From the NCBI GenBank assembly GCA_964446825.1, contig CAYUQR010000004.1:22828-86827 (forward strand): a DNA stretch of 64,000 nt, given 5' to 3'. Position 1 is the first letter of the stretch, and the number at the start of each line of letters is the position of its first letter. A model generated the notes under the pieces. It was not told the origin of the DNA and ran no database searches. It saw only the letters and a list, made by a program, of their open reading frames with translations. Of this stretch, positions 37,794-61,718 are shown one piece after another. Position numbers and translations under genes: made by a program. This DNA comes from an uncultured Rikenellaceae bacterium. Lineage in GTDB: Bacteria; Bacteroidota; Bacteroidia; Bacteroidales; VadinHA17.

Positions 37794-37798
37794 ATTAT

Positions 37799-37870: not shown

Positions 37871-37890
37871 CAAAAAAAAGTAATAAGTTA

Positions 37891-38292
37891 TTAGTCAGGA
37901 TTTAGCCTGGTAATATTATCCGAATCGCATTTCCGGCATTGGTCTGCCGGTTTTATGGTAACCATTGTTTCGTGACAATCATCGCACCTATACCAATAAT
38001 CCTCAGTTACATACGTCCCACCCTGAATAATAATTGCTTTCCCTTCCACAAACGCCTTTGCAATATTTTTACGGGCTTTGTCGTATAGTCTCGTAAAAGT
38101 CGGACGTGAAATATTCATCTTTTTTGCAGCCTCTTCCTGTGTAAGATTTTCGTAATCGGCAAGCCTCAAAGCCTCATACTCTTCATACTTTAAATCAACA
38201 GATCCCAGTTCCCGCATCGGAATGCCAAATGGTTTATACCCTTCCATCTGAGGAGGTCTTGTTATTCTTCTATGTCGAATACGGTTGGGCAT
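37891..38292 (-). CDS. DUF134 protein
   Basis: EEYEALRLADY, MNISRPTFTRLY, CDDC..CRKC. Confidence 0.9.
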   Translation of the reverse strand: MPNRIRHRRITRPPQMEGYKPFGIPMRELGSVDLKYEEYEALRLADYENLTQEEAAKKMNISRPTFTRLYDKARKNIAKAFVEGKAIIIQGGTYVTEDYWYRCDDCHETMVTIKPADQCRKCDSDNITRLNPD

Positions 38293-38361
38293 TTTGCAAT
38301 TCAGATATAAATTAAATAGCTCTTAATACATCATTAATTAAGGTACAAATTTAATGTTTTA

Positions 38362-38377
38362 ATGCACCAATGTTCAT
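38362..38377. promoter_or_regulatory. Operator ATGCAC-CAAT-GTTCAT
   Basis: One mismatch; upstream of DUF134 gene, near minus-strand -7 TAAATTTG (38346..38353). Confidence 0.7.
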
Positions 38378-38412
38378 TTAATCTGCTTTTTAATTAGTTT
38401 TGCACCCACATT

Positions 38413-38485
38413 CGGCCCGTAGCTCAGCTGGCAGAGCACGTGACTCTTAATCATGGGGTCGAGGGTTCGATTCCCTCCGGGCCGA
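38413..38485 (+). tRNA. tRNA-Lys(CTT)
   Basis: Acceptor CGGCCCG/CGGGCCG, D arm GCTC/GAGC, anticodon loop CT-CTT-AA, T arm GAGGG-TTCGATT-CCCTC; CCA not encoded. Confidence 0.95.
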
Positions 38486-38499
38486 CAATTTTTACATCA

Positions 38500-38640
38500 T
38501 CACCCGTTTGCACTTATCATTATGAGTGTTTTCTTATTCAGAATCTCAGTTTTCCTGCATGAGATCTTTATAATGTTATCCTTTTCGAATTCAGTCAGTA
38601 TGCGACTTACGCTCTTTCTTTATGCATCTAATATACTCAT
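38500..38640 (-). pseudogene. C-terminal HTH remnant of a fourth Crp/Fnr gene
   Basis: LDA*RKSVSRILTEFEKDNIIKISCRKTEILNKKTLIMISANG* matches the C-terminus of 40490..41167. Confidence 0.8.
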
Positions 38641-38746
38641 TTTTCAATTTGTTTAGCTAATATTTAAGAAACTGAATCTAAATGCAAATCTATCTGATAC
38701 ATTTGTTGCAGGGGGAAAAAAACATATTGAAGATTATAGCCGAATT

Positions 38747-38765
38747 GTTGAGATATTTCAACTTT
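38747..38765. promoter_or_regulatory. FNR-like palindrome GTTGAGATATTTCAAC(TTT)
   Basis: Identical to 14002..14020. Confidence 0.45.
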
Positions 38766-38844
38766 AGTACTCTACCAAATCAATAGATGAATACGCGTCA
38801 TATCTCAACAGGCAGAAATAGTGATACCTAAAATGATGCATATT

Positions 38845-39330
38845 TTATGCAATAGATTTGTGCTGCAGGCTGATCTTTGAATTGAAAAGCATATTAGCAA
38901 AAAGAGATTTTTCTTTCTTCGTTTTTTTCAGCATATAATAAAATGTATTGGCTTCTGTATGGGTCAATTCATTTTCTGATGACAATATGTTGTAGATTTT
39001 TATAAGACAATCGTCAAAATGCAGTTCAATTTCAATTAAATCTCCCATAGTCACTTCGACTCGAGGCAAAATATTGTTTCTTAAACATTCAGTTATCTGG
39101 TTAGATAGCTTCTCACACGGGAAATCCAACCAGCAATTCATTGCCTTGGCGATTTTTTCATGGTGTGCCAGGTATTTTTCCCGTTCTCTTTCACGTTCAC
39201 AAAGATCAGATATTAATGACTTTATTTCACGATCTTCTGCATTTTTATAAAGTTCCTGATATAATTCTGCCACCTGCCGGTGATAATTTTGAATCTGACT
39301 GATAATATCGCTTTTTTGCCTGTACATCAC
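38845..39330 (-). CDS. Hypothetical helical protein (ferritin-like?)
   Basis: YHRQVAELY..EREREKYL..LHFDDCL; all-helical, Glu-rich. Confidence 0.55.
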   Translation of the reverse strand: MMYRQKSDIISQIQNYHRQVAELYQELYKNAEDREIKSLISDLCEREREREKYLAHHEKIAKAMNCWLDFPCEKLSNQITECLRNNILPRVEVTMGDLIEIELHFDDCLIKIYNILSSENELTHTEANTFYYMLKKTKKEKSLFANMLFNSKISLQHKSIA

Positions 39331-39634
39331 TTTGCCCTTTCTTTACTTTATTCAGATCTGCATTAACAGACCCAATGATTTGCTTTAACTGCCTTTATAC
39401 AAAGGTAAGCATCTATATCGCTAATTACAAGTACGTTAATGATTGTTGCAACAAAGATAACCTTGAGATTTATCAAGTTTTTTTTTGTGCAGAAAGCAGA
39501 AAATTTAAGTGCTTATATTGATTGAAATTACGACAACCCTGAAAAAGAATGGCAGCAGGGTCTCAGGCCTGACCTTTATTTTTTGTATATCTCAGATATT
39601 AAATATATTACGGACTAGATTGTTTAATATGGCT

Positions 39635-40327
39635 TTATCCCTTCTGATTAAGAATTATTAACCGTTCCATATCCCTGATCTCAATTTTTTTCCCTTTTAA
39701 TTCAATTATTTTTTCGTCGTTAAACTCCGATAAAATTCTTACAACACTTTCCATGGACATTCCTGATAATTCGGCCAAATCTTTCCTGCTTATATAAGAA
39801 AAAATATCAATCGATTTAAATTCTTCCCTGTTTAAATACAACAATGTATTTGCGAGCTTCCCATTTAATTGTCTGAGACCTAAATTTAAACATTTGGTAA
39901 GCATAATGTTGTAATTTTTACAATACCAGTCGGACAGTTTTTGGGAAAAATCACAACAATTTGTTACAAGGTCTTTAATAGCTTCACGGTCCATTGAACA
40001 AATTTTCGTTTCTTTTAATGCCGATGCAGAGAAATAATATGTATCATCGCCAAACAATGATGTTAAGCCAATAAAATCATCAGATTTTAACAGTTTAATA
40101 ATAATGTTTTTTTCAGGGCTTTCAATATAGACCTTAGCTAAACCATCCAGAATATAGATAATATTTGTTACCTTAATTCCTTCTTTTACTATTGTTTCAC
40201 CTTTTTTATACCTGATTTGGGTCTTTTGTAAATTATAAAACTTTTCAGTATTTTTTGTCAGATGAACAAAACATTCCGATCGCTCTGAACAATCATTGCA
40301 ATTCGTTTTTGTCAAATACCTGTCCAT
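39635..40327 (-). CDS. Crp/Fnr-family regulator with N-terminal Cys cluster
   Basis: CNDCSERSEC, HTH ISRKDLAELSGMSMESVVR. Confidence 0.9.
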   Translation of the reverse strand: MDRYLTKTNCNDCSERSECFVHLTKNTEKFYNLQKTQIRYKKGETIVKEGIKVTNIIYILDGLAKVYIESPEKNIIIKLLKSDDFIGLTSLFGDDTYYFSASALKETKICSMDREAIKDLVTNCCDFSQKLSDWYCKNYNIMLTKCLNLGLRQLNGKLANTLLYLNREEFKSIDIFSYISRKDLAELSGMSMESVVRILSEFNDEKIIELKGKKIEIRDMERLIILNQKG

Positions 40328-40489
40328 TATAGAAATTTGTTGTGAAGAATTGATAAGCTATCTCCATTTTTAAATTAAAAATAAAAAACAAGCTCATATA
40401 CAAAGATATAAATAAGATAGCAGAATTTACAAAGCTTATAACATAGTTTGTAAATTCAGCCATTCTGATTACAACCGGCTTCCCGGAAG

Positions 40490-41167
40490 TCAACCGTTTG
40501 CACTGACAAGCTGCAGGGATTTTTTGTTTAATATTTCAACTTTTTTCTTCGCAATCCTTATTAAGCCGTCCTTTTCAAATTCAGTAATGACCCTGCTGAC
40601 GCTTTCGCGTGAGGAATCTACAAGGCCTCCGATTTCTTCCTGGTTAACCGGCATTGTAAATATGCTTGAGTTATATATCTGGTCCGACATTTCCAGTAAT
40701 ACATCTGCAATTTTACCTCTTACCTGCTTCTGTGTACGATTGGCACACCTGAAAAAGATTTCAAGTTCTTTCCTGCATAATTCAATCATTATTTCATATG
40801 AGAAATCCGGGTTTATGCTGAGCAAAAAACGGAAAATAGCCATATCAATAAAACATACCTCTGCTTTCTCAACAACAGTAACCGAATACTGGTTTATCTT
40901 GTCACCGAATGTGGTTGGCAGTCCCAGGTAACTGGGCGCTTTTATCAGACGGATAATTTGTTCATGGTGTGGCCCTGCTATGTGAACCTTTGCCAGGCCG
41001 TTGCGCAGGTAGGCAACATTTGTTGAAAAAGTACCCTGTTTAATTATCGGATCACCCTTACGGAAGATTACGAGCGCGCAATTGCACGAAAGTTTTTCAA
41101 TCTCCTCTTCACTCAATGTAGATGCTGCTTTTGACTTTATGCTACAAAATTTGCATTCGCTTTTCAT
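40490..41167 (-). CDS. Crp/Fnr-family regulator
   Basis: CKFC..CNC, HTH NQEEIGGLVDSSRESVSR. Confidence 0.9.
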   Translation of the reverse strand: MKSECKFCSIKSKAASTLSEEEIEKLSCNCALVIFRKGDPIIKQGTFSTNVAYLRNGLAKVHIAGPHHEQIIRLIKAPSYLGLPTTFGDKINQYSVTVVEKAEVCFIDMAIFRFLLSINPDFSYEIMIELCRKELEIFFRCANRTQKQVRGKIADVLLEMSDQIYNSSIFTMPVNQEEIGGLVDSSRESVSRVITEFEKDGLIRIAKKKVEILNKKSLQLVSANG

Positions 41168-41187
41168 TTTTCAAAAATACTAATTTT

Positions 41188-41203
41188 TGTGATACAGATC
41201 ACA
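41188..41203. promoter_or_regulatory. Perfect CRP-type box TGTGA-TACAGA-TCACA
   Basis: In the divergent region between crp and dsrE; overlaps the crp -7 element TAAATTTG. Confidence 0.75.
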
Positions 41204-41293
41204 AATTTACATAATCAACCTCACAGCCAAAATTAAGCATCAAAGCTAATAATTTAGTTCTTTTGTGAATTAATTAACAATAAAATATTTATT

Positions 41294-41713
41294 ATGGAAA
41301 CGAAAAAATTATGTCTGGCTCTATATACAGGAAGCGTAGACAAACTGACGGCTGCAGGAGTAATCCTGGGCGGTGCAGCAGCTGAAGACATGGATGTTGA
41401 AATCTTTGTTCTTTTACAGGCTGCTTTTGCATTTAAAAAGGAAAATGCCATGGTTAATGACAGGGTTGCAGAAATAACTGATAAGAAAGACGACTTTCTT
41501 GCATCACTGAAACGTCTTGGTACCCCTCATTGGACTGAGGCTTTCAAAAAAGCGAAGGATCTGACCAGCATAAAAATACATATTTGCGGTTTTGCAGGAA
41601 AAGTATGGCATGGTGAAAAACTCGATGACTTTATTGATCTGGCTGATGACATTTGTGGCATTGCTCAATATATACAGGCAGCAGAAGAAGCTGATCTGAA
41701 TCTTTTTATCTGA
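41294..41713 (+). CDS. DsrE/DrsE-family sulfur relay protein
   Basis: DKLTAAGVILGGAAA, KIHICG, DDICGIAQY. Confidence 0.7.
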   Translation: METKKLCLALYTGSVDKLTAAGVILGGAAAEDMDVEIFVLLQAAFAFKKENAMVNDRVAEITDKKDDFLASLKRLGTPHWTEAFKKAKDLTSIKIHICGFAGKVWHGEKLDDFIDLADDICGIAQYIQAAEEADLNLFI

Positions 41714-41758
41714 TGCTTCTTAGCTTCAGGTTCATAAATAATTTTAAAAATAAAAGAA

Positions 41759-42013
41759 ATGATAGCAATTGAAGAACTTAAAAAACTTAAAGCAGACAAG
41801 GTAGTTGATGCCCGTGGAACTGCATGCCCGGGACCACTGCTGGAAGCAAAGAAGGCTATTGGCACGATAAAGCCTGGAGATACAATGGAAGTTTTATCTG
41901 CTGATGAAGGGACAAAATCAGATCTTCCTAAATGGTGCACCAAACAGGGTCATGAGTACCTTGGCACTATTGAGGAGAGCGGGTACTTCAGGGTATTCCT
42001 GAAGAAGAAATAG
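41759..42013 (+). CDS. tusA: TusA-family sulfurtransferase
   Basis: DARGTACPGPLL, VLSADEG..DLPKWC. Confidence 0.9.
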   Translation: MIAIEELKKLKADKVVDARGTACPGPLLEAKKAIGTIKPGDTMEVLSADEGTKSDLPKWCTKQGHEYLGTIEESGYFRVFLKKK

Positions 42014-42022
42014 GGAAACAGT

Positions 42023-42430
42023 ATGGCAGGTATAAATAACAAGAGTGCCAGAATCCTGGTGTTTTCTACTGAAAAAATTTCTGATCCCGCCATCGATATG
42101 GCGGGATTATTAAAATTGCATTACCCACCTACTGTCTATACGATATCCGTTCCATGTTCCAGCGGAATAAAATCAAGATGGATTATGCATGCTTTCGAAC
42201 AAGGATTTGACGGGGTATTTATTGCTGCTGACGGCAGTGATTGCCCTTATGGCGAATCATGCACTGAAAAAACAGGTAAGATAGTCGGTCAAACTCATGA
42301 ATTGATGACAGCAAAGAACATCGAACGGGCCCGGCTGAGAATGGCCGCTATATGTTCAGTTTGCAGTGAAGCTTTTGTAAAACAGATGAAAAGCTTTAAT
42401 GAGTATTTAATAAATAATTCAAATAATTGA
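42023..42430 (+). CDS. MvhD-like (hydrogenase Fe-S delta subunit) protein, variant ligand set
   Basis: SDPAIDMAG..HYPP, VPCSSG, FDGVFIA..DC, RLRMAAICSVC. Confidence 0.8.
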   Translation: MAGINNKSARILVFSTEKISDPAIDMAGLLKLHYPPTVYTISVPCSSGIKSRWIMHAFEQGFDGVFIAADGSDCPYGESCTEKTGKIVGQTHELMTAKNIERARLRMAAICSVCSEAFVKQMKSFNEYLINNSNN

Positions 42431-42432
42431 TT

Positions 42433-43734
42433 ATGAGCGGGGAAATAGTTAATGCCTCTTATGATGCGCTAGTTATTGGTGGTGGTATTGCCGGTGGTGA
42501 GGCTGCTATAAACCTGGCCAACAATGGATTCAGGGTACTGATTGCTGAAAAAGATCTTTCCATTGGCGGGAAAATGATTCTTTTGAGCAAGGTATTCCCG
42601 ACTTTAGATTGCTCTGCCTGTATTACCACACCAAAGGTATCTGAAATATCGAGGCACCCGGGTATTACAATATTCACAGAAACCGAAGTAAAAAGAATTG
42701 TTAAAACCTCTGAAAGCAGTTTCGAAGCGAAAGTGATCAGAAATCCGCGTTATATCATCGCAGACGACTGTACCGGCTGCCAGCTTTGCGAACAGGCCTG
42801 TCCCGTAGTCGTTAACGACCAGTTCCAGTACAACATGGTTGGACGAAAAGCAGCTTATATCCCTTTTAGTATTGCCAGTCCCAGGATAGCTGCAATAGAT
42901 ATTGAAAACTGTACTCTATGTGGTGCCTGCGAAAAGGTATGTCCGACAAAATGTATTGACTTCACGCAGGAGGCTATAGAATACCATATAGACATAAAAA
43001 CAGTTGTTATTGCCACCGGCTTCAACCTGTTCGATCCTCTCAGGATACCACGCTATGGATTCGGAAATTATAAAAATATAATTACCTCGATGCAAATGGA
43101 AAGACAGCTGGCTCCTACCCGGCCTTTTCATACTATTCTCAGACCGGGCGACGGCAAGATGCCTGATAAAATCGCTTATGTCCTTTGCACAGGTTCGCGC
43201 GATGTTACTGTGGGAAACCCGATCTGTTCACAGATATGCTGCATGTATTCCATCAAGCAGGCACAACTGCTCATGGGTGCACTACCTATGGCGGATGTGA
43301 CAATATATTATATTAACATAAGGTCATTTGGCAAAGGGTTTGAAGAGTTTTACGAACAGGCCAAAGGAATGGGAGTCAATTTTGTTAAAGGCAAAATAGG
43401 GAAGATAGCTGAAAAAGAGAACGGGAACCTTCTGCTGCGGTATGAAGACATAAATGAAAGTACCGTGAAAGAGGCTGAGCATGATCTTGTGGTGCTCTCA
43501 GTTGGTATTCTTCCTAATCCTGACACTGCAATGTTTTTTCCTGAAAAAGAACTTGAACTTGATCCATTCAGCTTTATAAATCAGACTGACCCACTTGCAA
43601 GACCAGCCAAAACAAGTATTGAAGGCGTCTTTGTTGCCGGCACAGCCTCGGGGCCTATGGATATACCCGACTCAATACTTTCAGCAGGTTCAGCCTCTGC
43701 TGAAGCGATCAGTTACTTAACTCAGAAACCATGA
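42433..43734 (+). CDS. HdrA/QmoA-like flavoprotein
   Basis: GGGIAG, SKVFPTLDCSAC, ferredoxin insert, LCTGSRD..CSQICC. Confidence 0.9.
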   Translation: MSGEIVNASYDALVIGGGIAGGEAAINLANNGFRVLIAEKDLSIGGKMILLSKVFPTLDCSACITTPKVSEISRHPGITIFTETEVKRIVKTSESSFEAKVIRNPRYIIADDCTGCQLCEQACPVVVNDQFQYNMVGRKAAYIPFSIASPRIAAIDIENCTLCGACEKVCPTKCIDFTQEAIEYHIDIKTVVIATGFNLFDPLRIPRYGFGNYKNIITSMQMERQLAPTRPFHTILRPGDGKMPDKIAYVLCTGSRDVTVGNPICSQICCMYSIKQAQLLMGALPMADVTIYYINIRSFGKGFEEFYEQAKGMGVNFVKGKIGKIAEKENGNLLLRYEDINESTVKEAEHDLVVLSVGILPNPDTAMFFPEKELELDPFSFINQTDPLARPAKTSIEGVFVAGTASGPMDIPDSILSAGSASAEAISYLTQKP

Positions 43735-45668
43735 ACAATAAGTTAGGCGTTTATATTTGTCATTGCGGCGGGAATATCTCCGATTATGTTGACGTAGAAA
43801 AAGTAAGGCAGTCAATTGAAAATGAGGAGGGTGTTATCGTTGCCAAAACCACAATGTTTGCCTGCAGCGATTCAAGCCAGAAAGAAATTGTGGATGATAT
43901 CACAAAAAATGTGCTGGATGGTATAGTAGTTGCCTCATGTTCTCCGAAACTGCATCTGATAACCTTCAGGGCTGTAGTGGAAAGAGCAGGTCTGAATAAA
44001 TATAACTATGTTCAGGCAAATATTCGCGAACAGGCCTCATGGGCTCACTCCGACAATAAAAGCGGGGCCACGGAAAAGGCTATTCAGCTGGTAAAATCGG
44101 CCATTGCCAGGGTGCGTCTTGCTGAACCCCTATATCCTATTATAATCCCTTCCAAAAAAGCCGTTGCAGTTATTGGCGGAGGTATTGCCGGATTAAGAGC
44201 AGCCATTGAACTGTCAGATATGGACTGCCCGGTAACAGTAATAGAAAGAGAACATTTTATCGGGGGCAGGGTGGCTCAGTGGGACATCCTGTTTACTACC
44301 AACCAGACTGGCAAAGAACTGGTAACCAAATTGTATGATGATGTTATAAAACGCGATAACATTACATTACTGACAGGTGCCGAGGTAATATCGAATAAAG
44401 GGAATATTGGCGATTTCAAACTTAAAATTAAAATAACGCCACGATATATTACCGAACATTGTAATACAGGCCACCTGCAAAAAGCTATTGATGCCTGTCC
44501 TGTTGAAGTACCTGATGAATTCAATTTTAATATAACAAACAGGAAAGCAATATATCATAATTTCCCGAGCGAATACCCACAATACCCTGTTATTGATATT
44601 AAAAACTGCACCAGGTGCGGCGAATGCGAAAAGATTTGCGATAGCGTTGATTTTTCCCAGGAGGAAGGAATAATTGAGATCAATGTAGGCTCCGTTCTGA
44701 TGGCTACAGGGTTCGATTCCTACACACCTGTTGAAGGAGAATTCGGATATCAAAAATTTGATAATGTCATAACACTCCCGCAGTTTAAAAGGCTGATTGA
44801 CCTCAATGATAAAAAACTTATATTCAAAGGAAAAGAAATAAAGAATATAGCATATATATATTGTGTCGGGAGTCGTCAGATAGAGGGAGAGAATAAATTT
44901 TGCTCAAGGTATTGTTGTACTTCTGTAATTCATGCCTCAATCCAGACAAAGAAGAAATTTAGAAACATCAATAATTTCCATTTTACAAGGGGAATAAGAA
45001 CATATGGGAAACAGGAGGTTCTGTATAACGAATCTCTTAAAACCGGTGATATTTACATGCAGTCGTATGAAGATGACCCGACTGTTGTTACCATGGAGAA
45101 TGAAAAGACCATAGTTAAAATTAACGACATTTTAACAGGGAAGAAAGAGATAACGGTTGAAGCTGATCTTGTTGTGCTGGTAACGGGCATGGTACCAAGA
45201 GCAGATAACACGGTTGCATCGATCTTTAAACTGCCAAAAGGCCGTGACAGATTCTTCAATGAGATCCACATGAAACTTCGTCCGGTTGAAACTGTTATCG
45301 ACGGAATAACAATAAGCGGAGCCTGCCAGGGGCCAAAAAATATTATGGAATCTGTCAATTCTGCCCTTTCAGCCGCTACCAAATCATTCTCTTATGTAAG
45401 TAAAGGAGAACTTGCACTCGAGCCAATAATAGCAAAAATTGACAAGAATGTTTGCACCTGGTGCGGAGCCTGTGCTGAAGCCTGTCCGTTCGATGCAGTC
45501 ATTATGGTGAAGGATGAGAAAAAAGATACAGCAACAATAAATAATTCCGTGTGCAAAGGATGTGGAATGTGTCTGCCAGTTTGCCCTGTGAATGCCATAG
45601 ATTTAATTGCCTACTCTGACAATGAAATTGAAAGTATGATAGATGCACTTGCAGATGTTAAGAATTGA
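43731..45668 (+). CDS. HdrA/QmoB-like flavoprotein with C-terminal ferredoxin
   Basis: VYICHCGGNI, VASCSP, NIREQ, YCVGSR..CSRYCC, CTWCGACAEACP, CKGCGMCLPVCP. Confidence 0.9.
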   Translation: MNNKLGVYICHCGGNISDYVDVEKVRQSIENEEGVIVAKTTMFACSDSSQKEIVDDITKNVLDGIVVASCSPKLHLITFRAVVERAGLNKYNYVQANIREQASWAHSDNKSGATEKAIQLVKSAIARVRLAEPLYPIIIPSKKAVAVIGGGIAGLRAAIELSDMDCPVTVIEREHFIGGRVAQWDILFTTNQTGKELVTKLYDDVIKRDNITLLTGAEVISNKGNIGDFKLKIKITPRYITEHCNTGHLQKAIDACPVEVPDEFNFNITNRKAIYHNFPSEYPQYPVIDIKNCTRCGECEKICDSVDFSQEEGIIEINVGSVLMATGFDSYTPVEGEFGYQKFDNVITLPQFKRLIDLNDKKLIFKGKEIKNIAYIYCVGSRQIEGENKFCSRYCCTSVIHASIQTKKKFRNINNFHFTRGIRTYGKQEVLYNESLKTGDIYMQSYEDDPTVVTMENEKTIVKINDILTGKKEITVEADLVVLVTGMVPRADNTVASIFKLPKGRDRFFNEIHMKLRPVETVIDGITISGACQGPKNIMESVNSALSAATKSFSYVSKGELALEPIIAKIDKNVCTWCGACAEACPFDAVIMVKDEKKDTATINNSVCKGCGMCLPVCPVNAIDLIAYSDNEIESMIDALADVKN

Positions 45669-45703
45669 TTATTTGCTTTTTACTTATTCAAAAATATTTC
45701 ACC

Positions 45704-45982
45704 ATGGAGATTGAGAAAGGGAAAACATATAAATACCTGAGAGAGAAAAGAGAGGTATCCCAGATTGCAAAAGATAAAATGAAACAATTCAGTAAAATGA
45801 AGAAAATAATACTGGATTCGCTTAAGGAGGGAGAGCTTACCGTTGATCAGCTTACGCAAAAAATCAACCTTCCAAAAGATGAAGTTCTATTTTACCTGAT
45901 GTCTTTGATAAAGTATGGTTTTGTGCAGACCGGTTCGATTGATGATATGGATGAATATTTCACTTATAAACTTAAACAATAA
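45704..45982 (+). CDS. Small winged-helix protein
   Basis: IILDSLKEGELTVDQL..EVLFYLMSLIKYGFV; likely start 45704. Confidence 0.65.
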   Translation: MEIEKGKTYKYLREKREVSQIAKDKMKQFSKMKKIILDSLKEGELTVDQLTQKINLPKDEVLFYLMSLIKYGFVQTGSIDDMDEYFTYKLKQ

Positions 45983-47025
45983 TGGCCTCTATAAATCCTG
46001 AATTCGGTAAAGAGTTAACTAAGTATGGGGCATTTGATTTCAACGCATGCTATAACTGTGGTAATTGTACGGCTGTTTGTTCTTTATCAACTGAAGAAGA
46101 TTCATTTCCCAGGGAGATGCTGCGATTAAGTGTACTTGGACTGGAAGATGACATAAAATCATCGCTTAAGCCCTGGCTTTGCTATTATTGCGGCGAGTGT
46201 ACAACTCATTGTCCGCAAAATGCCAATCCCGGCGAATTAATGATGTCACTCAGAAGATGGCTCACATCAGAATATGACTGGACAAAACTATCAGGTTTAT
46301 TATACCGTTCATTCCCTCTTACCCTGATTGCATTTTTAGTTTCAGCTATTGGGATTTTGGCATATAGTATATTAAAGAATTTTAATATGCCGGAAATAAT
46401 GTCATCAGGGCATACTTTTGAAGTTGCTGCCATTGCAGCGGTTTTCGCAATAATCCTAATACCAAACATTGTAAGGATGTGGTGGTTCATTATTTTAAAA
46501 CCAAAGGTTAAGGTTCCTTTATTAAAATATTTTAAAAGTCTGGGGGAATTGATTATCCATATGTTCACACAAAAAAGGACCCTTGGATGCGATGAGAATA
46601 AGCTCAGATGGTTTGAACATTTTATTCTTGTAATAGGCTATTTAGGGTTGCTTTTTACCACAGTCTTTCTCGACTGGTTTTCAAGTACCAATATTTTTGT
46701 AATTGTTCTTGGATATGTGATGAGTATAATAATATTTCTGGTCACTATTGATTTCATGTGGGATCGTCTTAAGAAGAATAAAGAGATAAGCAAGAATTCA
46801 CAACCCTCCGACTGGATGTTCGTTGGATGGTTGTTTTTAATGGGGCTCACAGCATTTTTCGTCAGGTTGTTTATCGATAGCGGATTGCTCGATAATAACA
46901 AATGGCTCTATATCTTTCATATGATAATCCTTGTTCAGTGGGCATTGATAATTGTCCCGTTCGGGAAGTGGACTCATTTTCTGTATCGGTCATTTGCCAT
47001 GTATTTTTCTAAGCTAAAAAGTTAA
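45982..47025 (+). CDS. QmoC-like protein: HdrC-type 2x[4Fe-4S] domain plus membrane heme b domain
   Basis: CYNCGNCTAVC, CYYCGECTTHCP; transmembrane His in RWFEHF, IFHM and PFGKWTH. Confidence 0.85.
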   Translation: MASINPEFGKELTKYGAFDFNACYNCGNCTAVCSLSTEEDSFPREMLRLSVLGLEDDIKSSLKPWLCYYCGECTTHCPQNANPGELMMSLRRWLTSEYDWTKLSGLLYRSFPLTLIAFLVSAIGILAYSILKNFNMPEIMSSGHTFEVAAIAAVFAIILIPNIVRMWWFIILKPKVKVPLLKYFKSLGELIIHMFTQKRTLGCDENKLRWFEHFILVIGYLGLLFTTVFLDWFSSTNIFVIVLGYVMSIIIFLVTIDFMWDRLKKNKEISKNSQPSDWMFVGWLFLMGLTAFFVRLFIDSGLLDNNKWLYIFHMIILVQWALIIVPFGKWTHFLYRSFAMYFSKLKS

Positions 47026-47073
47026 ACTTTTCTTAAATATTTGACTTAAACCAGTTTTTTTAGTACCTTTACT

Positions 47074-47091
47074 TATTCCTAAATAGGAATA
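47074..47091. promoter_or_regulatory. Palindrome TATTCCTA-AA-TAGGAATA
   Basis: Between the putative -7 element and the start of the Fur-family gene. Confidence 0.5.
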
Positions 47092-47116
47092 TTTATCATT
47101 TAATATTACTTCTTAA

Positions 47117-47548
47117 ATGGCCAATAAATCAATTATAAGAATTCTGGTTCAGAACGATTTAAAAGTAACTCCTCAAAGAGTTGCCATACTGGAAGTGATT
47201 CTTGCACTTGAAACACATCCTACTGCTGATAATATCACTGAAGTTCTGAGATTTGCTCATCCCAATATCTCTCTAGCCACCATATACAATACTCTTGAAA
47301 CTTTCTCAAAAAAGGGAATAGTACACAAGGTGAGCACTGATAACGATACTACAAGATATGATCCGATAAGTGAAAGGCATCATCATCTTTATTGCCCTGA
47401 ATCGGGTCGTATAGAAGATTTTTACGATGAAGAGCTCAATAAAATACTTGACGATTATCTGATGAAAAAAAATATTCCCAATTTCACTATTGATAATGTC
47501 AGGATACAGATCATGGGGAAATTCACTGACAGGAAAATAAATAAATAA
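47117..47548 (+). CDS. Fur-family regulator (PerR-like)
   Basis: VTPQRVAIL, HPTAD, SLATIYNTL, RYD..HHHLYC. Confidence 0.9.
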   Translation: MANKSIIRILVQNDLKVTPQRVAILEVILALETHPTADNITEVLRFAHPNISLATIYNTLETFSKKGIVHKVSTDNDTTRYDPISERHHHLYCPESGRIEDFYDEELNKILDDYLMKKNIPNFTIDNVRIQIMGKFTDRKINK

Positions 47549-47680
47549 CCATATTAAGTTTTACAATTTAGGATATTGATCATTGATTCAGGATAAAAAA
47601 TAAAAGCAAAGAACTACCCACTGTTGCAGGGGTGAGTTCATGATAATAAGATTTAAAGATAAACTAACATTTAAAGTATT

Positions 47681-48181
47681 ATGGGACAAAAAGGAAGATC
47701 AATTGTAAAAATGGATGTTGATAAGTTAATCAACCTGTTGAACAAAGCATTAGCAGACGAGTGGCTCGCTTATTACCAGTATTGGGTAGGAGCTAAAGTG
47801 GTTAAAGGGCCGATGAAGGATGCGGTCATTTCGGAGCTTACCATTCATGCTACTGAAGAACTTAGTCACGCTGAACTTTTAGTAACCAGAATCATCCAGC
47901 TGGGCGGAACACCAGTTCTGTCGCCTGAAGAGTGGCTCAAGATTACAGGTTGTGGGTATGACCCTCCCCTTGATCATTATGTAGAGAAAATTCTTGATCA
48001 AAACATACAAGGGGAACAGTGCGCTATAAGCTTTTATAGTGGATTGCTCGATATTACAAGAGAGGGTGATCCTGTTACATACAACATAATCCTTACGATT
48101 CTGTCGCAGGAGGTTGAACATGAAGAAGACCTGTCTTCACTGAAAGAGGACCTTGAATTAATGCTTGCAAGAGGGAAGTAA
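47681..48181 (+). CDS. DpsL/bacterioferritin-like protein
   Basis: KALADEWLAYYQYW, EELSHA, GEQCAI, EVEHEEDL. Confidence 0.85.
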   Translation: MGQKGRSIVKMDVDKLINLLNKALADEWLAYYQYWVGAKVVKGPMKDAVISELTIHATEELSHAELLVTRIIQLGGTPVLSPEEWLKITGCGYDPPLDHYVEKILDQNIQGEQCAISFYSGLLDITREGDPVTYNIILTILSQEVEHEEDLSSLKEDLELMLARGK

Positions 48182-48243
48182 TCAGTGATCAGTGATCAGG
48201 AATCAGGAATCAGTGATCAGTAATCAGTAATCGGTAATCTGTA
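48181..48243 (+). repeat. Heptamer tandem repeat (consensus ATCAGTR) x9
   Basis: atcagtg atcagtg atcagga atcagga atcagtg atcagta atcagta atcggta atctgta. Confidence 0.9.
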
Positions 48244-48299
48244 ATTAAGAATTACTGGTTTTTAAAAAAATTGACTATTATTAACTAAAAACAAATATA

Positions 48300-49007
48300 A
48301 TGGAAGAGAATCAGGTAGTTGCCATGCCACGAATTGGCGATAAGGCACCATCATTTAAAGCAGTTACAACGCAGGGAGATATAAATTTTCCTGGCGATTA
48401 TTCCGGAGGCTGGGTAATCCTTTTCAGTCACCCTGCCGATTTCACTCCGGTATGTACATCTGAATTCATGACATTTGCAAGTATGGCAGATAAGTTTGAA
48501 GAAGCCAACTGCAAGCTTGTGGGTCTTTCGGTGGACGGACTTTACAGCCACATTGCATGGTTAAGGACCATCAAAGAAAAAATTGAATATAAGGGGATGA
48601 AAGATGTCGAAGTTAATTTTCCTCTTATTGAAGACATCACAATGGAAGTAGCCAAAAAATACGGAATGATACAACCAGGCGAAAGCAATACCAAAGCTGT
48701 AAGAGCAGTATTCTTCGTTGATCCCAAAGGCATTATCAGGGCAATTATATATTACCCGCTAAGCCTTGGACGTAATTTTGACGAACTATATAGATCCCTG
48801 ATTGCCATGCAGACAGCCGATGCATTTTCTATTGCCACTCCGGCCGACTGGCGTCCGGGTGATGACGTGATTGTTCCTACTGCAGGATCTTGTGGAGTCG
48901 CAAAAGAAAGGATGGAGAAAAAAGAGGAGATGCATTGTTACGATTGGTTTTTCTGTACCAAAAAGCTTGATAAAGATAAGCTATTTAAAACGGTGCTGAA
49001 GAAATAA
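48300..49007 (+). CDS. Peroxiredoxin (Prx6/archaeal-type)
   Basis: HPADFTPVCTSE, GRNFDE, TPADW, C-terminal CYDWFFC. Confidence 0.95.
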   Translation: MEENQVVAMPRIGDKAPSFKAVTTQGDINFPGDYSGGWVILFSHPADFTPVCTSEFMTFASMADKFEEANCKLVGLSVDGLYSHIAWLRTIKEKIEYKGMKDVEVNFPLIEDITMEVAKKYGMIQPGESNTKAVRAVFFVDPKGIIRAIIYYPLSLGRNFDELYRSLIAMQTADAFSIATPADWRPGDDVIVPTAGSCGVAKERMEKKEEMHCYDWFFCTKKLDKDKLFKTVLKK

Positions 49008-49175
49008 TCAAGATTCATTATTGTTCATACCCTGACCGCAAAGTACACACAAGATATATAAATAATACAAAGGGGCTATCATATCAATTGCTTCTTTGCC
49101 AAGTAAATAAATTCCTGGTGAACTTTGCGGTTATTTTTTTGTTCCATAAATACTTTTTCACTTGATACAGACCAT

Positions 49176-49793
49176 ATGAACGAATTTGACATAAAAGCAG
49201 CAGGATGGGATCAGAACCCTATGATCTGGAATCGGGCCAATGCCATTGCCAATGAAATAAAAAGACAGCTGCCATTAAACAACAGAATGACTGCACTGGA
49301 ATTCGGCGCAGGTACGGGAGTAACCAGTTTTATACTTAAGGATTCACTGAAAGAGATCACTTTAATGGATAATTCAAGAGAAATGGTGAAAATAATGGAT
49401 GAGAAAATAAAGGAAACAGGTGTTAAAAATCTTAAAACAGTGAACTTTAATCTTGAACATGAAAACTATAATGTTGCAAAGTTCGATCTTGTTTTTAACC
49501 AGATGGTTCTTCATCACATCACTGACATTCGTGATATCTTAAATAAATTTTTTAATCTTCTGAATCCGGGAGGATTTCTTGCTTTAGCTGACCTGTATCC
49601 TGAAAATGGCTCCTTTCACGGGGAGGGTTTTACCGGTCATAAAGGCTTCGATCCGGCAAAATTGTCAGAATTACTTTCTAAAGCTGGATTCAATAATATA
49701 AGTCACAGGCAGTGTTTTGTCATTAACAAGGAAATATCTGATTCTGTAAAAAAACAATTTAAGGTATTCCTGCTTACAGCTAACCGGCCTTAA
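49176..49793 (+). CDS. Class I SAM-dependent methyltransferase
   Basis: FDIKAAGWD, LEFGAGTG, LHHI, HKGFD; likely start 49176. Confidence 0.85.
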   Translation: MNEFDIKAAGWDQNPMIWNRANAIANEIKRQLPLNNRMTALEFGAGTGVTSFILKDSLKEITLMDNSREMVKIMDEKIKETGVKNLKTVNFNLEHENYNVAKFDLVFNQMVLHHITDIRDILNKFFNLLNPGGFLALADLYPENGSFHGEGFTGHKGFDPAKLSELLSKAGFNNISHRQCFVINKEISDSVKKQFKVFLLTANRP

Positions 49794-49860
49794 GTCTAAA
49801 AAGAGATATAGCGTAAAAAATGATTATTTAGTAAAAATAATCTCTTATTTTATTTGCATT

Positions 49861-49876
49861 ATGAACGTAGGTTCAT
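49861..49876. promoter_or_regulatory. Operator ATGAAC-GTAG-GTTCAT
   Basis: Perfect arms, flanked by TTGCATT and TATCTTT exactly as at 2841. Confidence 0.8.
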
Positions 49877-49899
49877 TATCTTTACATAAAACAAGAGAT

Positions 49900-50145
49900 A
49901 TGAAAGCCTCAATAGCAATTAAGATTTTTTTTATTCTGCCTCTTATACTTTTTGTTGATTATATCCTTATGGCGATAATAGGATGTTCAACATGCCTTTT
50001 TGGTCTTGGTGAAGATTTTTACTGCGGTCCTTTTTGTGCAGCAGGAAAAATAATTTTAGCTTTGTCAGTGATATTCTTTGGCTACCTTCTCTACCCGGAT
50101 ATCAAGACATTGTTCAAATCAAACAAAAATGGCGAGGCCAAATAA
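49900..50145 (+). CDS. Small two-helix membrane protein with Cys-containing loop
   Basis: GCSTCLFG..YCGPFC between hydrophobic helices; the ORF-track start 49861 lies inside the operator. Confidence 0.65.
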   Translation: MKASIAIKIFFILPLILFVDYILMAIIGCSTCLFGLGEDFYCGPFCAAGKIILALSVIFFGYLLYPDIKTLFKSNKNGEAK

Positions 50146-50533
50146 AAGCAGGAAAATCTCTAACCCCCCCAAAATGAAGGGCTTTAAGCCCTATGGAATG
50201 TCTTTCTGCAAAATTGACCCAGTTGTTTTGAAATTTGAAGAATTTGAAAGCATCAGATTGATAAATTACGAAAGACTTTCCCAGGAACAGGCGGCTGAGC
50301 AGATGAATATTTCACGTCCTACTTTCACACGGATATATAACAGAGCTTTAAAACAAATTGCCAAATCTTTTGTTGAAGGTAAAGCCCTTGAAATTGAAGG
50401 AGGAAATTACCTCCTTGAAAAGGACTGGTATCGTTGCAAAAAATGCTATAAGCTTATTGAGGGCTTAGAAAATCATTTCAGATGCAAGGATTGTAATTTA
50501 TATGGCGACAGTGAATTAATAAAATTAAATTAG
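50129..50533 (+). CDS. DUF134 protein
   Basis: MARPNKSRKI, EEFESIRL, MNISRPTFTRIY, CKKC..CKDC. Confidence 0.9.
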   Translation: MARPNKSRKISNPPKMKGFKPYGMSFCKIDPVVLKFEEFESIRLINYERLSQEQAAEQMNISRPTFTRIYNRALKQIAKSFVEGKALEIEGGNYLLEKDWYRCKKCYKLIEGLENHFRCKDCNLYGDSELIKLN

Positions 50534-50548
50534 GATACTGGATATTTT

Positions 50549-61711: not shown

Positions 61712-61718
61712 AGTCTTT

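What the first reader, a model, noticed from the sequence alone, without database searches (positions are those of the whole stretch)
41294..47025. Qmo-like membrane complex encoded with TusA and DsrE sulfur carriers, no aprAB in the window
The operon is dsrE, tusA, mvhD-like, hdrA (QmoA-like), hdrA (QmoB-like without fused MvhD), wHTH and qmoC-like. In sulfate reducers QmoABC links menaquinone to APS reductase. sHdr sulfur oxidation needs HdrB/HdrC and LbpA. None of those are in the window. Inference: a quinone-coupled, possibly bifurcating persulfide or sulfane-sulfur reductase/oxidase in a fermentative Bacteroidota.
Basis: partly seen in the sequence, partly recalled or inferred. Interest (0 to 1): 0.8.

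Follow-up and report, generated by a model that had tools for sequence, protein, structure and literature searches.

The report
TusA/DsrE-fed Qmo-like membrane redox complex
Anaerobic sediment Bacteroidota carry a conserved, uncharacterised operon that joins sulfur-carrier proteins to a quinone-linked flavin/iron-sulfur membrane complex, which probably lets these fermenters reduce (or oxidise) protein-bound sulfur.

Summary
Window 41294-47025 holds seven co-directional, partly overlapping genes: DsrE2B-type carrier, TusA, MvhD-like protein, QmoA-like HdrA, QmoB-like HdrA, small wHTH, QmoC-like anchor. All cofactor ligands are conserved.

It is not canonical QmoABC. QmoC scores 156 bits against a curated cutoff of 300. 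MvhD is a separate gene with a changed Cys pattern. No apr, sat, dsr, CCG/HdrB or LbpA gene lies in the 64 kb window.

The core tusA-to-qmoC order is intact in 53 of 56 informative loci from other Bacteroidota genomes. A DsrE-family gene is present in 54 of 56. A divergent Crp/Fnr regulator is present in 49 of 56.

Sister QmoC-like clades use the same core with a [NiFe] hydrogenase, a NuoEF-type module or an HdrD-like protein. TusA/DsrE therefore fills the slot of a swappable redox partner.

Best reading: a menaquinone-linked, possibly ferredoxin-coupled oxidoreductase acting on sulfur bound to TusA/DsrE. Direction and catalytic site are unknown. I found no description of it in the papers searched. 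Genome-wide absence of aprAB could not be tested.

The parts
40490..41167 (-). Divergent Crp/Fnr-family regulator (225 aa) with an FNR-like Cys set (C5, C8, C30, C105)
   Evidence: Pfam cNMP_binding + HTH_Crp_2 + Crp. Present divergently upstream in 49 of 56 loci. Cys conservation: C5/C8 96%, C105 98%.
41188..41203 (.). Operator box 1, perfect palindrome TGTGAtacagaTCACA
   Evidence: The only perfect match in the 64 kb window. With one mismatch allowed there are 6 hits against 2.35 expected, and 0 of 100 shuffles reach 6. A perfect box is present in 32 of 49 loci that have the divergent regulator.
41264..41279 (.). Operator box 2, TGTGAattaatTAACA, about 15 bp upstream of the dsrE start
   Evidence: One-mismatch hit. 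The surrounding TTCCTTTGTGAAaTAATTAACA block is conserved across loci.
41294..41713 (+). DsrE2B-type sulfur-carrier protein (139 aa), probable active Cys98
   Evidence: Pfam DsrE_2, 26 bits. Family profile against PDB 2QS7 (SSO1126, DsrE2B) gives E 2.4e-19, and against 3PNX 5e-9, with C98 aligned to their Cys. 2QS7 is identified as DsrE2B in PMC4175335. C98 is invariant and C121 is 97% conserved.
41759..42013 (+). TusA sulfur carrier (84 aa), Cys23 in a CPGP motif
   Evidence: Pfam TusA 81.6 bits. NCBIfam TusA equivalog 49.5 bits, below the cutoff of 78. C23 is 100% conserved in 64 sequences. Present in all complete cores.
42023..42430 (+). MvhD-like iron-sulfur subunit (135 aa) with a changed Cys pattern (C45, C74, C80, C111xxC114)
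   Evidence: Pfam FlpD 96.7 bits. AF2 model pLDDT 74.5. Foldseek match to 5ODH chain D, TM 0.76, E 6e-10. Compared with hydrogenase-linked and methanogen MvhDs, it has lost the N-terminal CxxC and gained C80, C111 and C114. These Cys are invariant in 35 homologues.
42427..43734 (+). QmoA-like HdrA (435 aa): FAD domain, complete 2x[4Fe-4S] inserted ferredoxin domain, C254/C267/C271/C272 cluster, and a DC62xxC65 motif. It has no N-terminal or C-terminal HdrA domain.
   Evidence: NCBIfam HdrA2 470 bits over model positions 136-561. PDB HdrA 363 bits, with C65 aligned to the Sec/Cys position of methanogen HdrA. Cys conservation.
43731..45668 (+). QmoB-like HdrA (645 aa): N-terminal Cys domain (C10, C12, C45, C70), FAD domain, only one intact cluster motif in the inserted domain, and a C-terminal 2x[4Fe-4S] domain. 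It has no fused MvhD and no DCxxC motif.
   Evidence: NCBIfam HdrA2 572 bits over model positions 1-644 of 777. Full-length alignment to 5ODC chain A, 465 bits. Cys conservation. 32.5% identical to the QmoA-like paralogue.
45704..45982 (+). Small winged-helix protein (92 aa from ATG 45704; the ORF as listed starts at TTG 45665). It has no Cys. It is either a subunit/adaptor or a regulator.
   Evidence: Weak Pfam HTH_9, TrmB, HTH_5 and PCI hits, E 5e-7 to 1e-3. No significant PDB sequence match. Present in 76 of 80 loci, median length 92 aa, always between hdrA and qmoC.
45982..47025 (+). QmoC-like membrane anchor (347 aa): HdrC-like 2x[4Fe-4S] domain plus six predicted TM helices, with His pairs placed for two haems b
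   Evidence: NCBIfam qmoC 155.7 bits, full length, below the cutoff of 300. HdrC hits in PDB. Cys motifs 100% conserved and H144, H193, H213, H313, H332 at least 96% conserved. TM segments and His positions. Relatives carry Pfam Nitrate_red_gam.

Best explanation
The operon encodes a membrane-anchored HdrA-type flavin/iron-sulfur complex. It is served by cytoplasmic sulfur-carrier proteins.

The two HdrA paralogues have lost complementary parts. Only the QmoA-like one keeps the DCxxC motif and both clusters of the inserted ferredoxin domain. Only the QmoB-like one keeps the N-terminal and C-terminal cluster domains. They should therefore work as a heterodimer with two FAD.

The QmoC-like subunit connects this dimer to the menaquinone pool through an HdrC-like pair of [4Fe-4S] clusters and two haems b that span the membrane. 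The MvhD-like protein is the port to a third partner. In sister clades that partner is a [NiFe] hydrogenase. Here it is replaced by TusA and DsrE2-type or DsrE3-type carriers, which hold sulfur on a conserved Cys as a persulfide or a thiosulfonate.

The complex therefore moves electrons between menaquinone and carrier-bound sulfur. My preferred direction is reductive: sulfane sulfur to H2S, with menaquinol and reduced ferredoxin as joint donors (confurcation at HdrA-FAD). This would give fermenters in sulfidic, redox-fluctuating sediments an electron sink and a way to remove reactive sulfur species.

Expression is probably controlled by the divergent Crp/Fnr regulator through the TGTGA-N6-TCACA boxes.

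Shown: gene content, cofactor motifs, synteny, the operator, non-membership of canonical Qmo, and the partner swap between clades. Inferred: the substrate, the direction, ferredoxin coupling, complex formation and regulation.
For: - Domain content and full-length homology to HdrA, MvhD and QmoC.
- All cofactor ligands and both carrier Cys are conserved.
- The two HdrAs have lost complementary parts.
- QmoC has six TM helices. H144/H313 lie on the outer side and H213/H332 on the inner side.
- The window encodes ETF:quinone oxidoreductase, so the host uses a membrane quinone.
- The core gene order is intact in 53 of 56 loci, while flanking genes vary. At least one DsrE-family gene is present in 54 of 56.
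- The carrier set (DsrE2B-like, 3PNX-like DsrE2, 3MC3/DsrE3A-like, TusA) matches the dsrE3A-dsrE2B-tusA trio next to Hdr-like genes in sulfur oxidisers.
- Sister QmoC-like clades place MvhD plus the [NiFe] hydrogenase small and large subunits, a NuoEF-like module or an HdrD-like protein next to the same core.
- The MvhD Cys pattern differs between this TusA-linked clade and the three hydrogenase-linked MvhDs compared.
- SQR homologues adjoin the operon in 4 loci. A complete PsrABC/PhsABC-like operon adjoins it in L014, and its PhsA-like subunit is also found in L017 and L024.
- From established values (my own knowledge plus PMC3333476): the S0/HS- couple at about -270 mV lies close to the mean of menaquinone at about -75 mV and ferredoxin at about -450 mV. 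It could therefore take the thermodynamic place of H+/H2.
- Labilibaculum sp. carries the same operon. Black Sea Labilibaculum, Lentimicrobiales and Ancylomarina isolates are fermenters that tolerate 7 mM sulfide.
Against: - No subunit has a recognised site for S-S or persulfide chemistry. There is no CCG/HdrB domain and no rhodanese domain.
- DsrE2B, the closest characterised relative of the window's carrier, reacted with none of the sulfur compounds tested in vitro (PMC4175335).
- No sulfur importer of the YeeE type is linked to the operon.
- Menaquinol alone cannot reduce sulfane sulfur, so the reductive model needs a low-potential co-donor. That co-donor is assumed, not shown.
- All informative loci belong to one phylum, with QmoC at least 68% identical. 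Part of the synteny may therefore reflect shared ancestry.
- The neighbouring genes (PerR/Fur, Dps, peroxiredoxin, OsmC, thioredoxins) fit a general redox-stress role equally well.
Confidence: 0.5

Rival explanations
1. Same complex and substrates, opposite direction. Sulfide or carrier-bound sulfane sulfur is oxidised. Electrons go to menaquinone and, by bifurcation, to ferredoxin. The result is sulfide detoxification, or low-potential reductant gained from sulfide. The quinol is then re-oxidised by fumarate reductase or cytochrome bd.
For: - The host genera tolerate high sulfide, and the authors loosely suggested an 'Hdr system' for detoxification.
- SQR lies beside the operon in 4 loci.
- The carrier trio is the one associated with oxidative sHdr systems.
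- The redox potentials allow near-equilibrium operation in either direction (inference).
Against: - There is no downstream pathway for the sulfane sulfur produced. No sHdr, Dsr, Soe or persulfide dioxygenase was seen in the window or the loci.
- Electron flow from the cytoplasm to an outer quinone site would consume membrane potential.
- There is no recognised catalytic site.
Confidence: 0.2
2. It is a thiol/disulfide repair system of the oxidative-stress regulon. TusA and DsrE act as redox-active Cys proteins. Their mixed disulfide or trisulfide, comparable to DsrC or to CoM-S-S-CoB, is re-reduced by the complex with quinol or ferredoxin electrons after oxygen exposure.
For: - PerR/Fur, Dps, 1-Cys peroxiredoxin, OsmC, thioredoxins and thioredoxin reductases flank the operon here and in many loci.
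- The regulator has an FNR-like Cys set.
- The MvhD-like protein gained a CxxC motif.
Against: - The flanking stress genes vary between loci and are not part of the operon.
- TusA/DsrE families are known as sulfur carriers, not general disulfide reductants.
- SQR or Psr/Phs genes are neighbours in some loci.
Confidence: 0.1
3. It serves biosynthetic sulfur mobilisation. The complex supplies or removes electrons so that sulfide can be loaded on TusA, or released from it, for Fe-S cluster, molybdenum cofactor or thionucleoside synthesis in a sulfide-rich anaerobe.
For: - TusA is a biosynthetic sulfur hub in E. coli (general knowledge; stated in PMC4175335).
- The window is rich in Fe-S maturation-like genes: NifX-like, MinD/Fer4, Mrp-type neighbours, a radical SAM protein and a cysteine desulfurase-like protein.
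Against: A two-FAD, dihaem, roughly ten-cluster respiratory-type complex is out of proportion to a biosynthetic need. No target biosynthetic enzyme is linked to it.
Confidence: 0.08
4. It is part of an sHdr-like sulfur-oxidising system. The HdrB/HdrC-type catalytic subunits, and perhaps LbpA, are encoded elsewhere in the genome.
For: - An HdrC-like (228 aa) plus CCG-domain (356 aa) pair lies within 10 kb in 20 of 80 related loci.
- QmoAB-HdrBC combinations are known (PMC10504309).
- The carrier trio is sHdr-like.
Against: - That pair belongs to a different module (DUF134-NifX-ARMT1-rSAM-...-MinD). Its orientation and distance vary, and it is absent from the window.
- No lipoate-binding protein recurs near the operon.
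- QmoC is already present as the partner of HdrA.
Confidence: 0.07
5. It is an ordinary QmoABC that serves an APS reductase encoded elsewhere, for sulfate reduction or sulfite oxidation.
For: Overall subunit architecture. JGI annotators name some homologues QmoC.
Against: - QmoC scores 155.7 bits against the curated cutoff of 300. It falls in a different clade from the one sampled representative that reaches the cutoff, P0174 at 305.7 bits.
- No AprA-like ORF lies within 10 kb in any of 80 loci, whereas tusA/dsrE are always linked.
- Cultured members of carrier genera are fermenters. In that study only Pseudodesulfovibrio had the sulfate-reduction pathway.
Confidence: 0.03

Closest known systems
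QmoABC of sulfate reducers and green sulfur bacteria (Desulfovibrio, Archaeoglobus, Chlorobaculum)
   Same: Two HdrA-like flavoproteins, an MvhD-like module, and a membrane subunit that fuses an HdrC-like iron-sulfur domain to a dihaem cytochrome b. It is quinone-linked and suspected of confurcation with an unidentified third partner (PMC3333476).
   Different: - MvhD is a separate gene with a changed Cys pattern.
- QmoC is below the curated family cutoff.
- aprAB is not linked.
- tusA and dsrE genes, a small wHTH gene and a Crp/Fnr regulator are invariably linked.
'Type II' Qmo proteins (Neukirchen et al. 2023, PMC10504309, which cites an earlier QmoAB/HdrA phylogeny as its ref. 43)
   Same: QmoA/B closer to true HdrA than to canonical QmoA/B. 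Found in organisms with or without Apr/Dsr. Function declared unknown. The window's HdrAs score 360-465 bits against methanogen HdrA.
   Different: In the text and supplements I could read, that work does not mention a TusA/DsrE link or Bacteroidota carriers. I had no type II reference sequences, so membership is not tested.
sHdr sulfur-oxidising Hdr-like system with dsrE3A-dsrE2B-tusA and LbpA
   Same: The same kinds of sulfur carriers (DsrE2B-like, DsrE3A-like, TusA) sit directly next to an HdrA-containing complex.
   Different: The operon has no HdrB1/B2 or HdrC1/C2, and no LbpA was found near it. It has two HdrAs, MvhD and a membrane anchor to quinone instead.
MvhADG-HdrABC of methanogens, and the uncharacterised Mvh-HdrA-QmoC-like clusters of Aminicenantes and others (L081-L083)
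   Same: The MvhD-HdrA core. The sister clusters share the QmoC-like anchor at 38-41% identity.
   Different: The hydrogenase subunits and HdrB are absent. MvhD has lost the canonical N-terminal CxxC. Sulfur carriers take the hydrogenase's place.
DsrMK(JOP) with DsrC
   Same: A functional analogy only: a quinone-linked membrane complex that reduces sulfur bound to the Cys of a small carrier protein.
   Different: DsrK uses an HdrD-type CCG catalytic domain. The subunits are not homologous to HdrA, and DsrC is not TusA or DsrE.

Membership tests
QmoABC (canonical, Apr-associated) | Two HdrA-related FAD/Fe-S subunits (QmoA, QmoB) | tested here: met
   435-aa and 645-aa HdrA homologues with GxGxxG and Fe-S motifs.
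QmoABC (canonical, Apr-associated) | QmoB carries a fused C-terminal MvhD-like domain | tested here: not met
   The HdrA ends at model position 644 of 777. The MvhD-like part is a separate upstream gene, 42023-42430.
QmoABC (canonical, Apr-associated) | QmoC is an HdrC-like 2x[4Fe-4S] domain fused to a dihaem b membrane domain | tested here: met
   Two CxxCxxCxxxC motifs, six TM segments and two His pairs. Haem binding itself cannot be tested here.
QmoABC (canonical, Apr-associated) | Reaches the curated QmoC equivalog score (NF038018, cutoff 300 bits) | tested here: not met
   155.7 bits. The clade representative P0121 scores 162.6. The one sampled representative that reaches the cutoff, P0174, scores 305.7.
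QmoABC (canonical, Apr-associated) | Genomic or functional association with aprAB (and sat) | tested here: not met
   Absent from the 64 kb window. No AprA-like ORF lies within 10 kb in 80 loci. Genome-wide absence was not testable.
sHdr sulfur-oxidation system | HdrB1/B2 (CCG domains) and HdrC1/C2 in the cluster | tested here: not met
   None in the operon or the window. An HdrC-like/CCG pair is a non-operonic neighbour in 20 of 80 loci.
sHdr sulfur-oxidation system | Lipoate-binding protein LbpA and its ligases linked to the cluster | tested here: not met
   No GcvH/lipoyl-type protein was found among the window ORFs scanned or the recurrent neighbours.
sHdr sulfur-oxidation system | Accompanying DsrE3/DsrE2/TusA sulfur transferases | tested here: met
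   DsrE2B-like protein and TusA in the window. DsrE2 (3PNX-like) and DsrE3A-like proteins in sibling operons.
DsrE2B subgroup of DsrE proteins | DsrE fold, about 140 aa, with a single conserved active-site Cys near position 99, genetically linked to Hdr-type genes and tusA | tested here: met
   The profile hits 2QS7 (SSO1126, DsrE2B) at E 2.4e-19, with C98 aligned to its Cys. Linkage. A second Cys, C121, is also conserved at 97%, so 'single' is not strictly met.
TusA family | TusA fold with the Cys-Pro-x-Pro active-site motif | tested here: met
   Pfam 81.6 bits. C23 in CPGP is invariant. It is not an E. coli TusA equivalog: 49.5 bits against a cutoff of 78.
MvhD / FlpD [2Fe-2S] subunit | MvhD fold | tested here: met
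   Foldseek TM 0.76 to 5ODH chain D. Pfam 96.7 bits.
MvhD / FlpD [2Fe-2S] subunit | Canonical Cys ligand set (N-terminal CxxC, MCSG, GDC) | tested here: not met
   The N-terminal CxxC is replaced by FSTEKIS. C80 and C111xxC114 are gained. Whether a cluster is still bound cannot be tested here.
Flavin-based electron-bifurcating HdrA complexes | Demonstrated coupled reduction or oxidation of three partners at HdrA-FAD | not testable with these tools
   Only the cofactor motifs and the ferredoxin-type inserted domain are seen.

The most novel reading that the evidence does not exclude
This would be a new class of respiratory, flavin-based bifurcating or confurcating enzyme. Its mid-potential partner would be a protein-bound persulfide (TusA/DsrE-SSH paired with H2S), standing where H2/H+ stands in the hydrogenase-linked sister complexes. 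Sulfur redox chemistry would be coupled at once to menaquinone and to ferredoxin. 'Fermentative' Bacteroidota, abundant in anoxic sediments, fens, lakes and digesters, would then have an unrecognised energy-conserving sulfur metabolism. The catalytic site might be the remodelled MvhD-like subunit.
Probability: 0.2. Interest if true: 0.85.

Novelty: new variant of a known kind. Interest (0 to 1): 0.68.

Why it matters
Bacteroidales and Marinilabiliales are among the main fermenters of anoxic sediments, peat, lakes and digesters. They are usually left out of sulfur-cycle budgets.

A conserved, widespread operon ties a quinone-linked HdrA complex to sulfur carriers. Relatives of its QmoC occur in 244 species-level genomes, and the 80 best, all Bacteroidota, were examined here. 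This suggests these organisms exchange electrons with zero-valent or other oxidised sulfur, so their automated 'QmoC' and 'hydrogenase subunit' labels do not indicate sulfate reduction or hydrogenase activity.

The comparison across clades also bears on an old question about Qmo: what is the 'third partner' proposed for confurcation? The same MvhD-HdrA-QmoC core sits next to a hydrogenase, a NuoEF module, an HdrD-like protein or TusA/DsrE. Several of these natural variants are now open to biochemical test, some in cultured strains.

Tried and rejected
- An exact look-up of the window's QmoC-like protein found no record, so the source contig could not be identified.
I spent the last homologue search on obtaining an admissible but shallow alignment. 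Whether the new Cys rebuild a cluster site stays open.
- Sigma-70 promoter and terminator scans of 40900-47700 were no better than shuffles.
- The wHTH protein has no significant PDB sequence match; the best hit was E 0.12.
- Seven literature searches found no description of a TusA/DsrE-linked Qmo-like operon.
- The supplement table of PMC10504309 covers only genomes with Dsr-related hits. It did not list the relevant genera usefully.
- The NCBIfam searches returned no QmoA or QmoB model, so only QmoC membership could be scored.
- I considered that the wHTH might be DsrC-like or DsrD-like. I rejected DsrC because the protein has no Cys. A DsrD-like role has no support beyond the fold class.
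- I considered that the MetV-MetF reductase at 59349-60833 might be an Hdr partner, as in Moorella. I rejected this because it lies 12 kb away on the other strand, inside a corrinoid methyltransferase cluster.

Full report

Yes. Seven co-directional ORFs fill 41294-47025. Pfam and NCBIfam assign them as follows:
- a weak DsrE_2 protein (139 aa)
- TusA (84 aa, 81.6 bits)
- an FlpD/MvhD protein (135 aa, 96.7 bits)
- an HdrA homologue of 435 aa, matching positions 136-561 of the 777-position HdrA2 model
- an HdrA homologue of 645 aa, matching positions 1-644, which is a whole HdrA minus the MvhD part
- a small winged-helix protein
- a 347-aa protein that aligns end to end with the curated QmoC model at 155.7 bits, half the cutoff of 300

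The MvhD-like gene matches positions 644-769 of the same HdrA2 model. Stop and start codons overlap at three junctions, so this is one operon.

I scanned about 55 ORFs across the whole 64 kb window. None is an apr, sat, dsr, CCG-domain or lipoyl-carrier gene. A tblastn search with a CCG protein found nothing.

The window does encode ETF:quinone oxidoreductase and a fused ETF. The host therefore uses a membrane quinone.

**2. Are the proteins functional?**

I extracted orthologues from 80 related loci. Every expected ligand is conserved:
- TusA C23 (CPGP motif): 100%
- DsrE C98: 100%
- five Cys in the MvhD-like protein: 100%
- the HdrA cluster motifs
- both CxxCxxCxxxC motifs of QmoC: 100%
- five His in QmoC: at least 96%

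A hydropathy profile gives QmoC six TM segments. H144 and H313 lie at the outer ends and H213 and H332 at the inner ends. This is the layout of a dihaem cytochrome b.

Alignment to solved methanogen HdrA structures shows that the two paralogues have lost complementary parts:
- The 435-aa protein lacks the N-terminal and C-terminal domains. It keeps both clusters of the inserted ferredoxin domain. It also keeps the DC62xxC65 motif, whose second Cys aligns with the Sec/Cys of HdrA.
- The 645-aa protein keeps the N-terminal Cys domain and the C-terminal 2x[4Fe-4S] domain. It has lost that motif and one of the inserted clusters.

This fits an obligate heterodimer, as is assumed for QmoA and QmoB.

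**3. Distribution and synteny**

The QmoC-like protein has thousands of relatives. The top 120 are 72-96% identical, and those that carry a taxon name are Bacteroidales, Bacteroidia or Lentimicrobiaceae.

A scan of one genome per species found relatives in 244 genomes. The best 80 are all Bacteroidota MAGs. They come from fens, lakes, a sulfide spring, sulfidic caves, groundwater and digesters.

Of 56 loci with enough upstream DNA:
- 53 have the complete tusA-mvhD-hdrA-hdrA-wHTH-qmoC core by ORF calling. In two of the other three, tblastn detects the hdrA only in pieces or at reduced identity. In the third the wHTH protein is weakly similar.
- 54 have at least one DsrE-family gene.
- 49 have the divergent Crp/Fnr gene.

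The DsrE region varies:
- the window's 141-aa type alone: 11 loci
- the 141-aa type plus a 188-aa canonical DsrE_2: 13 loci
- the 188-aa type alone: 15 loci
- the 188-aa type plus a 122-aa classical DsrE: 15 loci

The gene after qmoC also varies: Fur, DUF134, Dps, ARMT1, a metallo-beta-lactamase-fold protein or a CCG gene. So rearrangements have accumulated around an intact core.

Labilibaculum sp., from a cultured genus, carries the same operon.

**4. The carriers**

A profile of the 141-aa family hits PDB 2QS7 at E 2.4e-19, with C98 on its conserved Cys. Liu et al. identify 2QS7 (SSO1126) as DsrE2B. This subgroup is genetically tied to Hdr-like systems and has Cys99 as its candidate active residue. 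It was unreactive in their in vitro assays (PMC4175335).

The 188-aa type resembles 3PNX. The 122-aa type resembles 3MC3, which is SSO1125 or DsrE3A. The carrier set therefore mirrors the dsrE3A-dsrE2B-tusA trio that flanks sHdr genes in sulfur oxidisers.

**5. Relationship to Qmo**

A search of 1.84 billion cluster representatives collapses the Bacteroidota clade to one full-length representative, P0121, at 61% identity. The next full-length relatives reach only 38-41%.

In a neighbour-joining tree the window groups with P0121, apart from P0174. P0174 is the only one of ten sampled representatives to reach the curated QmoC cutoff, at 305.7 bits. P0121 scores 162.6 and the others score 141-221.

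This fits the 'type II' Qmo proteins of Neukirchen et al. Those are closer to HdrA, occur with or without Apr/Dsr, and have no known function (PMC10504309). I had no type II reference sequences, so I could not test membership.

**6. The partner swap**

I examined the gene contexts of seven outgroup QmoC-like proteins.
- Three carry HdrA-like genes, MvhD and the [NiFe] hydrogenase small and large subunits with a maturation protease (L081 and L082), or the hydrogenase large subunit with NuoE/NuoF-like modules (L083, Aminicenantes).
- Two carry NuoE/NuoF-type NAD(H) modules.
- One carries a 1483-aa HdrA-GltD fusion, MvhD and an HdrD-like CCG protein.
- TusA and DsrE appear in none of them.

The QmoC-like anchor with HdrA is therefore a reusable core, often accompanied by MvhD. 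Its remaining partner is exchangeable. In this clade the partner position is held by sulfur carriers.

The MvhD-like subunit is changed in this clade. The hydrogenase-linked and methanogen MvhDs share CxWC, MCSG, GC and GDC. The TusA-linked version has FSTEKIS in place of the N-terminal CxxC, and it has gained C80 and C111-S-V-C114. These Cys are invariant in 35 homologues. The fold is still MvhD: AF2 pLDDT 74.5 and TM 0.76 to 5ODH chain D.

All five Cys follow beta-strand ends in the model. A relocated cluster site is therefore plausible, but I could not measure distances.

**7. Regulation and neighbours**

The 126-bp region between the regulator and dsrE contains the window's only perfect TGTGA-N6-TCACA (41188-41203). 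It also contains a second one-mismatch box (41264-41279). A perfect box recurs in 32 of 49 loci.

The regulator has an FNR-like Cys set.

The flanking genes here encode:
- two more Crp/Fnr paralogues
- DUF134 proteins
- PerR/Fur, Dps, a 1-Cys peroxiredoxin and OsmC
- thioredoxins and thioredoxin reductases

In other species the operon adjoins sulfur enzymes. An SQR homologue (3HYV, E 4e-36) is present in four loci. In L014 a complete PsrABC/PhsABC-like operon lies directly downstream of the regulator, and its PhsA-like subunit is also found in L017 and L024.

An HdrC-like plus CCG pair lies within 10 kb in 20 of 80 loci. It belongs to a separate DUF134-NifX-ARMT1-rSAM-MinD module. Its orientation varies, and it is absent from the window.

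**8. Mechanism**

The most economical reading is a menaquinone-linked oxidoreductase that acts on sulfur carried by TusA or DsrE.

The S0/HS- couple, at about -270 mV, sits near the mean of menaquinone (-75 mV, PMC3333476) and ferredoxin (about -450 mV). It could therefore replace H+/H2 in a bifurcating or confurcating HdrA core. This is inference.

I favour the reductive direction, serving as an electron sink and removing reactive sulfur species. Two observations point that way:
- Cultured members of the carrier genera are fermenters that tolerate 7 mM sulfide (PMC11129491).
- No downstream oxidative pathway is visible.

The weakest point is that no recognised S-S-cleaving site is present. 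Candidate sites are the remodelled MvhD-like subunit and the HdrA C62/C65 region.

**9. Novelty**

Seven full-text searches found no description of this operon. The nearest statements are the 'type II Qmo, function unknown' remark and a loose mention of an 'Hdr system' in Black Sea isolates.

I rate it a new variant of a known kind: a Qmo/Hdr-type complex combined with a TusA/DsrE relay. It is widespread and can be tested in culture.

**10. Limits**

- I could not check genome-wide absence of aprAB.
- All informative loci belong to one phylum.
- Substrate, direction, ferredoxin coupling, complex composition and regulation are inferred.

Noticed in passing
window 2888-8910; also L012, L017, L018, L041, L053: A conserved module of unknown function: DUF134, two NifX/NifB-like proteins, an ARMT1-like protein, a radical SAM protein, then (here) peptide deformylase, a CGGC-domain protein and two MinD/ParA-type ATPases with 4Fe-4S inserts. 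In related loci the same module also holds an HdrC-like plus CCG (HdrB-like) pair and an Mrp/NUBPL ATPase. The window lacks these.
   Followed up: partly
window 9066-12783: An ETF:quinone oxidoreductase (583 aa) followed by a fused ETF beta-alpha protein (647 aa). This is a quinone-linked electron input in a presumed fermenter.
   Followed up: no
window 37101-41167: Three paralogous Crp/Fnr regulators within 4 kb (37101+, 39635-, 40490-). Each has an N-terminal Cys cluster (for example C9/C12/C18 and C10/C13/C19). A DUF134 gene and a 161-aa protein with no Pfam match lie among them. The latter is conserved next to Crp2 in a few loci.
   Followed up: partly
window 47117-52778: A redox-stress gene string: Fur/PerR-like, Dps/ferritin-like, 1-Cys peroxiredoxin, a methyltransferase, DUF134, OsmC, and a 578-aa membrane protein fused to an NTPase_1 domain. 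The same genes recur in varying order near the operon in many loci.
   Followed up: partly
window 35112-36315, 53115-54383 and 55934-56392: Several thiol-redox genes: a thioredoxin-thioredoxin reductase fusion (422 aa), a 152-aa thioredoxin, and a TrxR-like ORF of 266 aa next to a Trx-like gene. The TrxR-like ORF is shorter than its homologues of about 321 aa in related loci. It may be truncated, or its start may be miscalled.
   Followed up: no
window 58670-62387 (- strand): A corrinoid methyl-transfer set: a B12-binding protein, a pterin-binding methyltransferase, a fused MetV-MetF-type methylenetetrahydrofolate reductase (494 aa) and a MetH-activation-domain protein. This acetogen-like or demethylase-like cluster is unusual for Bacteroidales.
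   Followed up: no
L014 377-5046; L017; L024; L002 2115-3572; L012; L015; L045: In L014 the regulator gene is followed on its own strand by a complete PsrABC/PhsABC-like molybdoenzyme operon (Tat signal; 472 bits to PhsA, below the cutoff). The PhsA-like subunit is also found in L017 and L024. In four other species an SQR homologue sits beside the regulator or operon.
   Followed up: partly
L081, L082, L083, L085, L086, L087: Uncharacterised QmoC-like/HdrA clusters in Aminicenantes, Fidelibacterota, other Bacteroidota, Nitrospirota-like and unclassified MAGs. They are joined to Mvh-type [NiFe] hydrogenases, NuoE/NuoF-GltD modules or HdrD-like proteins. They may be quinone-linked bifurcating hydrogenases or NADH modules.
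   Followed up: partly
window 12839-13492, 31726-32511, 49125-49793, 56405-57079: Four UbiE/TehB-like SAM methyltransferase paralogues are scattered through the window, several of them next to OsmC or redox genes. Their substrates are unknown.
   Followed up: no
window 21075-22010, 29057-30559, 57234-57665: Mobile or defence-type genes: a protein with a restriction-endonuclease domain, a 500-aa Fic-domain protein and an IS1595-type transposase zinc-ribbon fragment.
   Followed up: no
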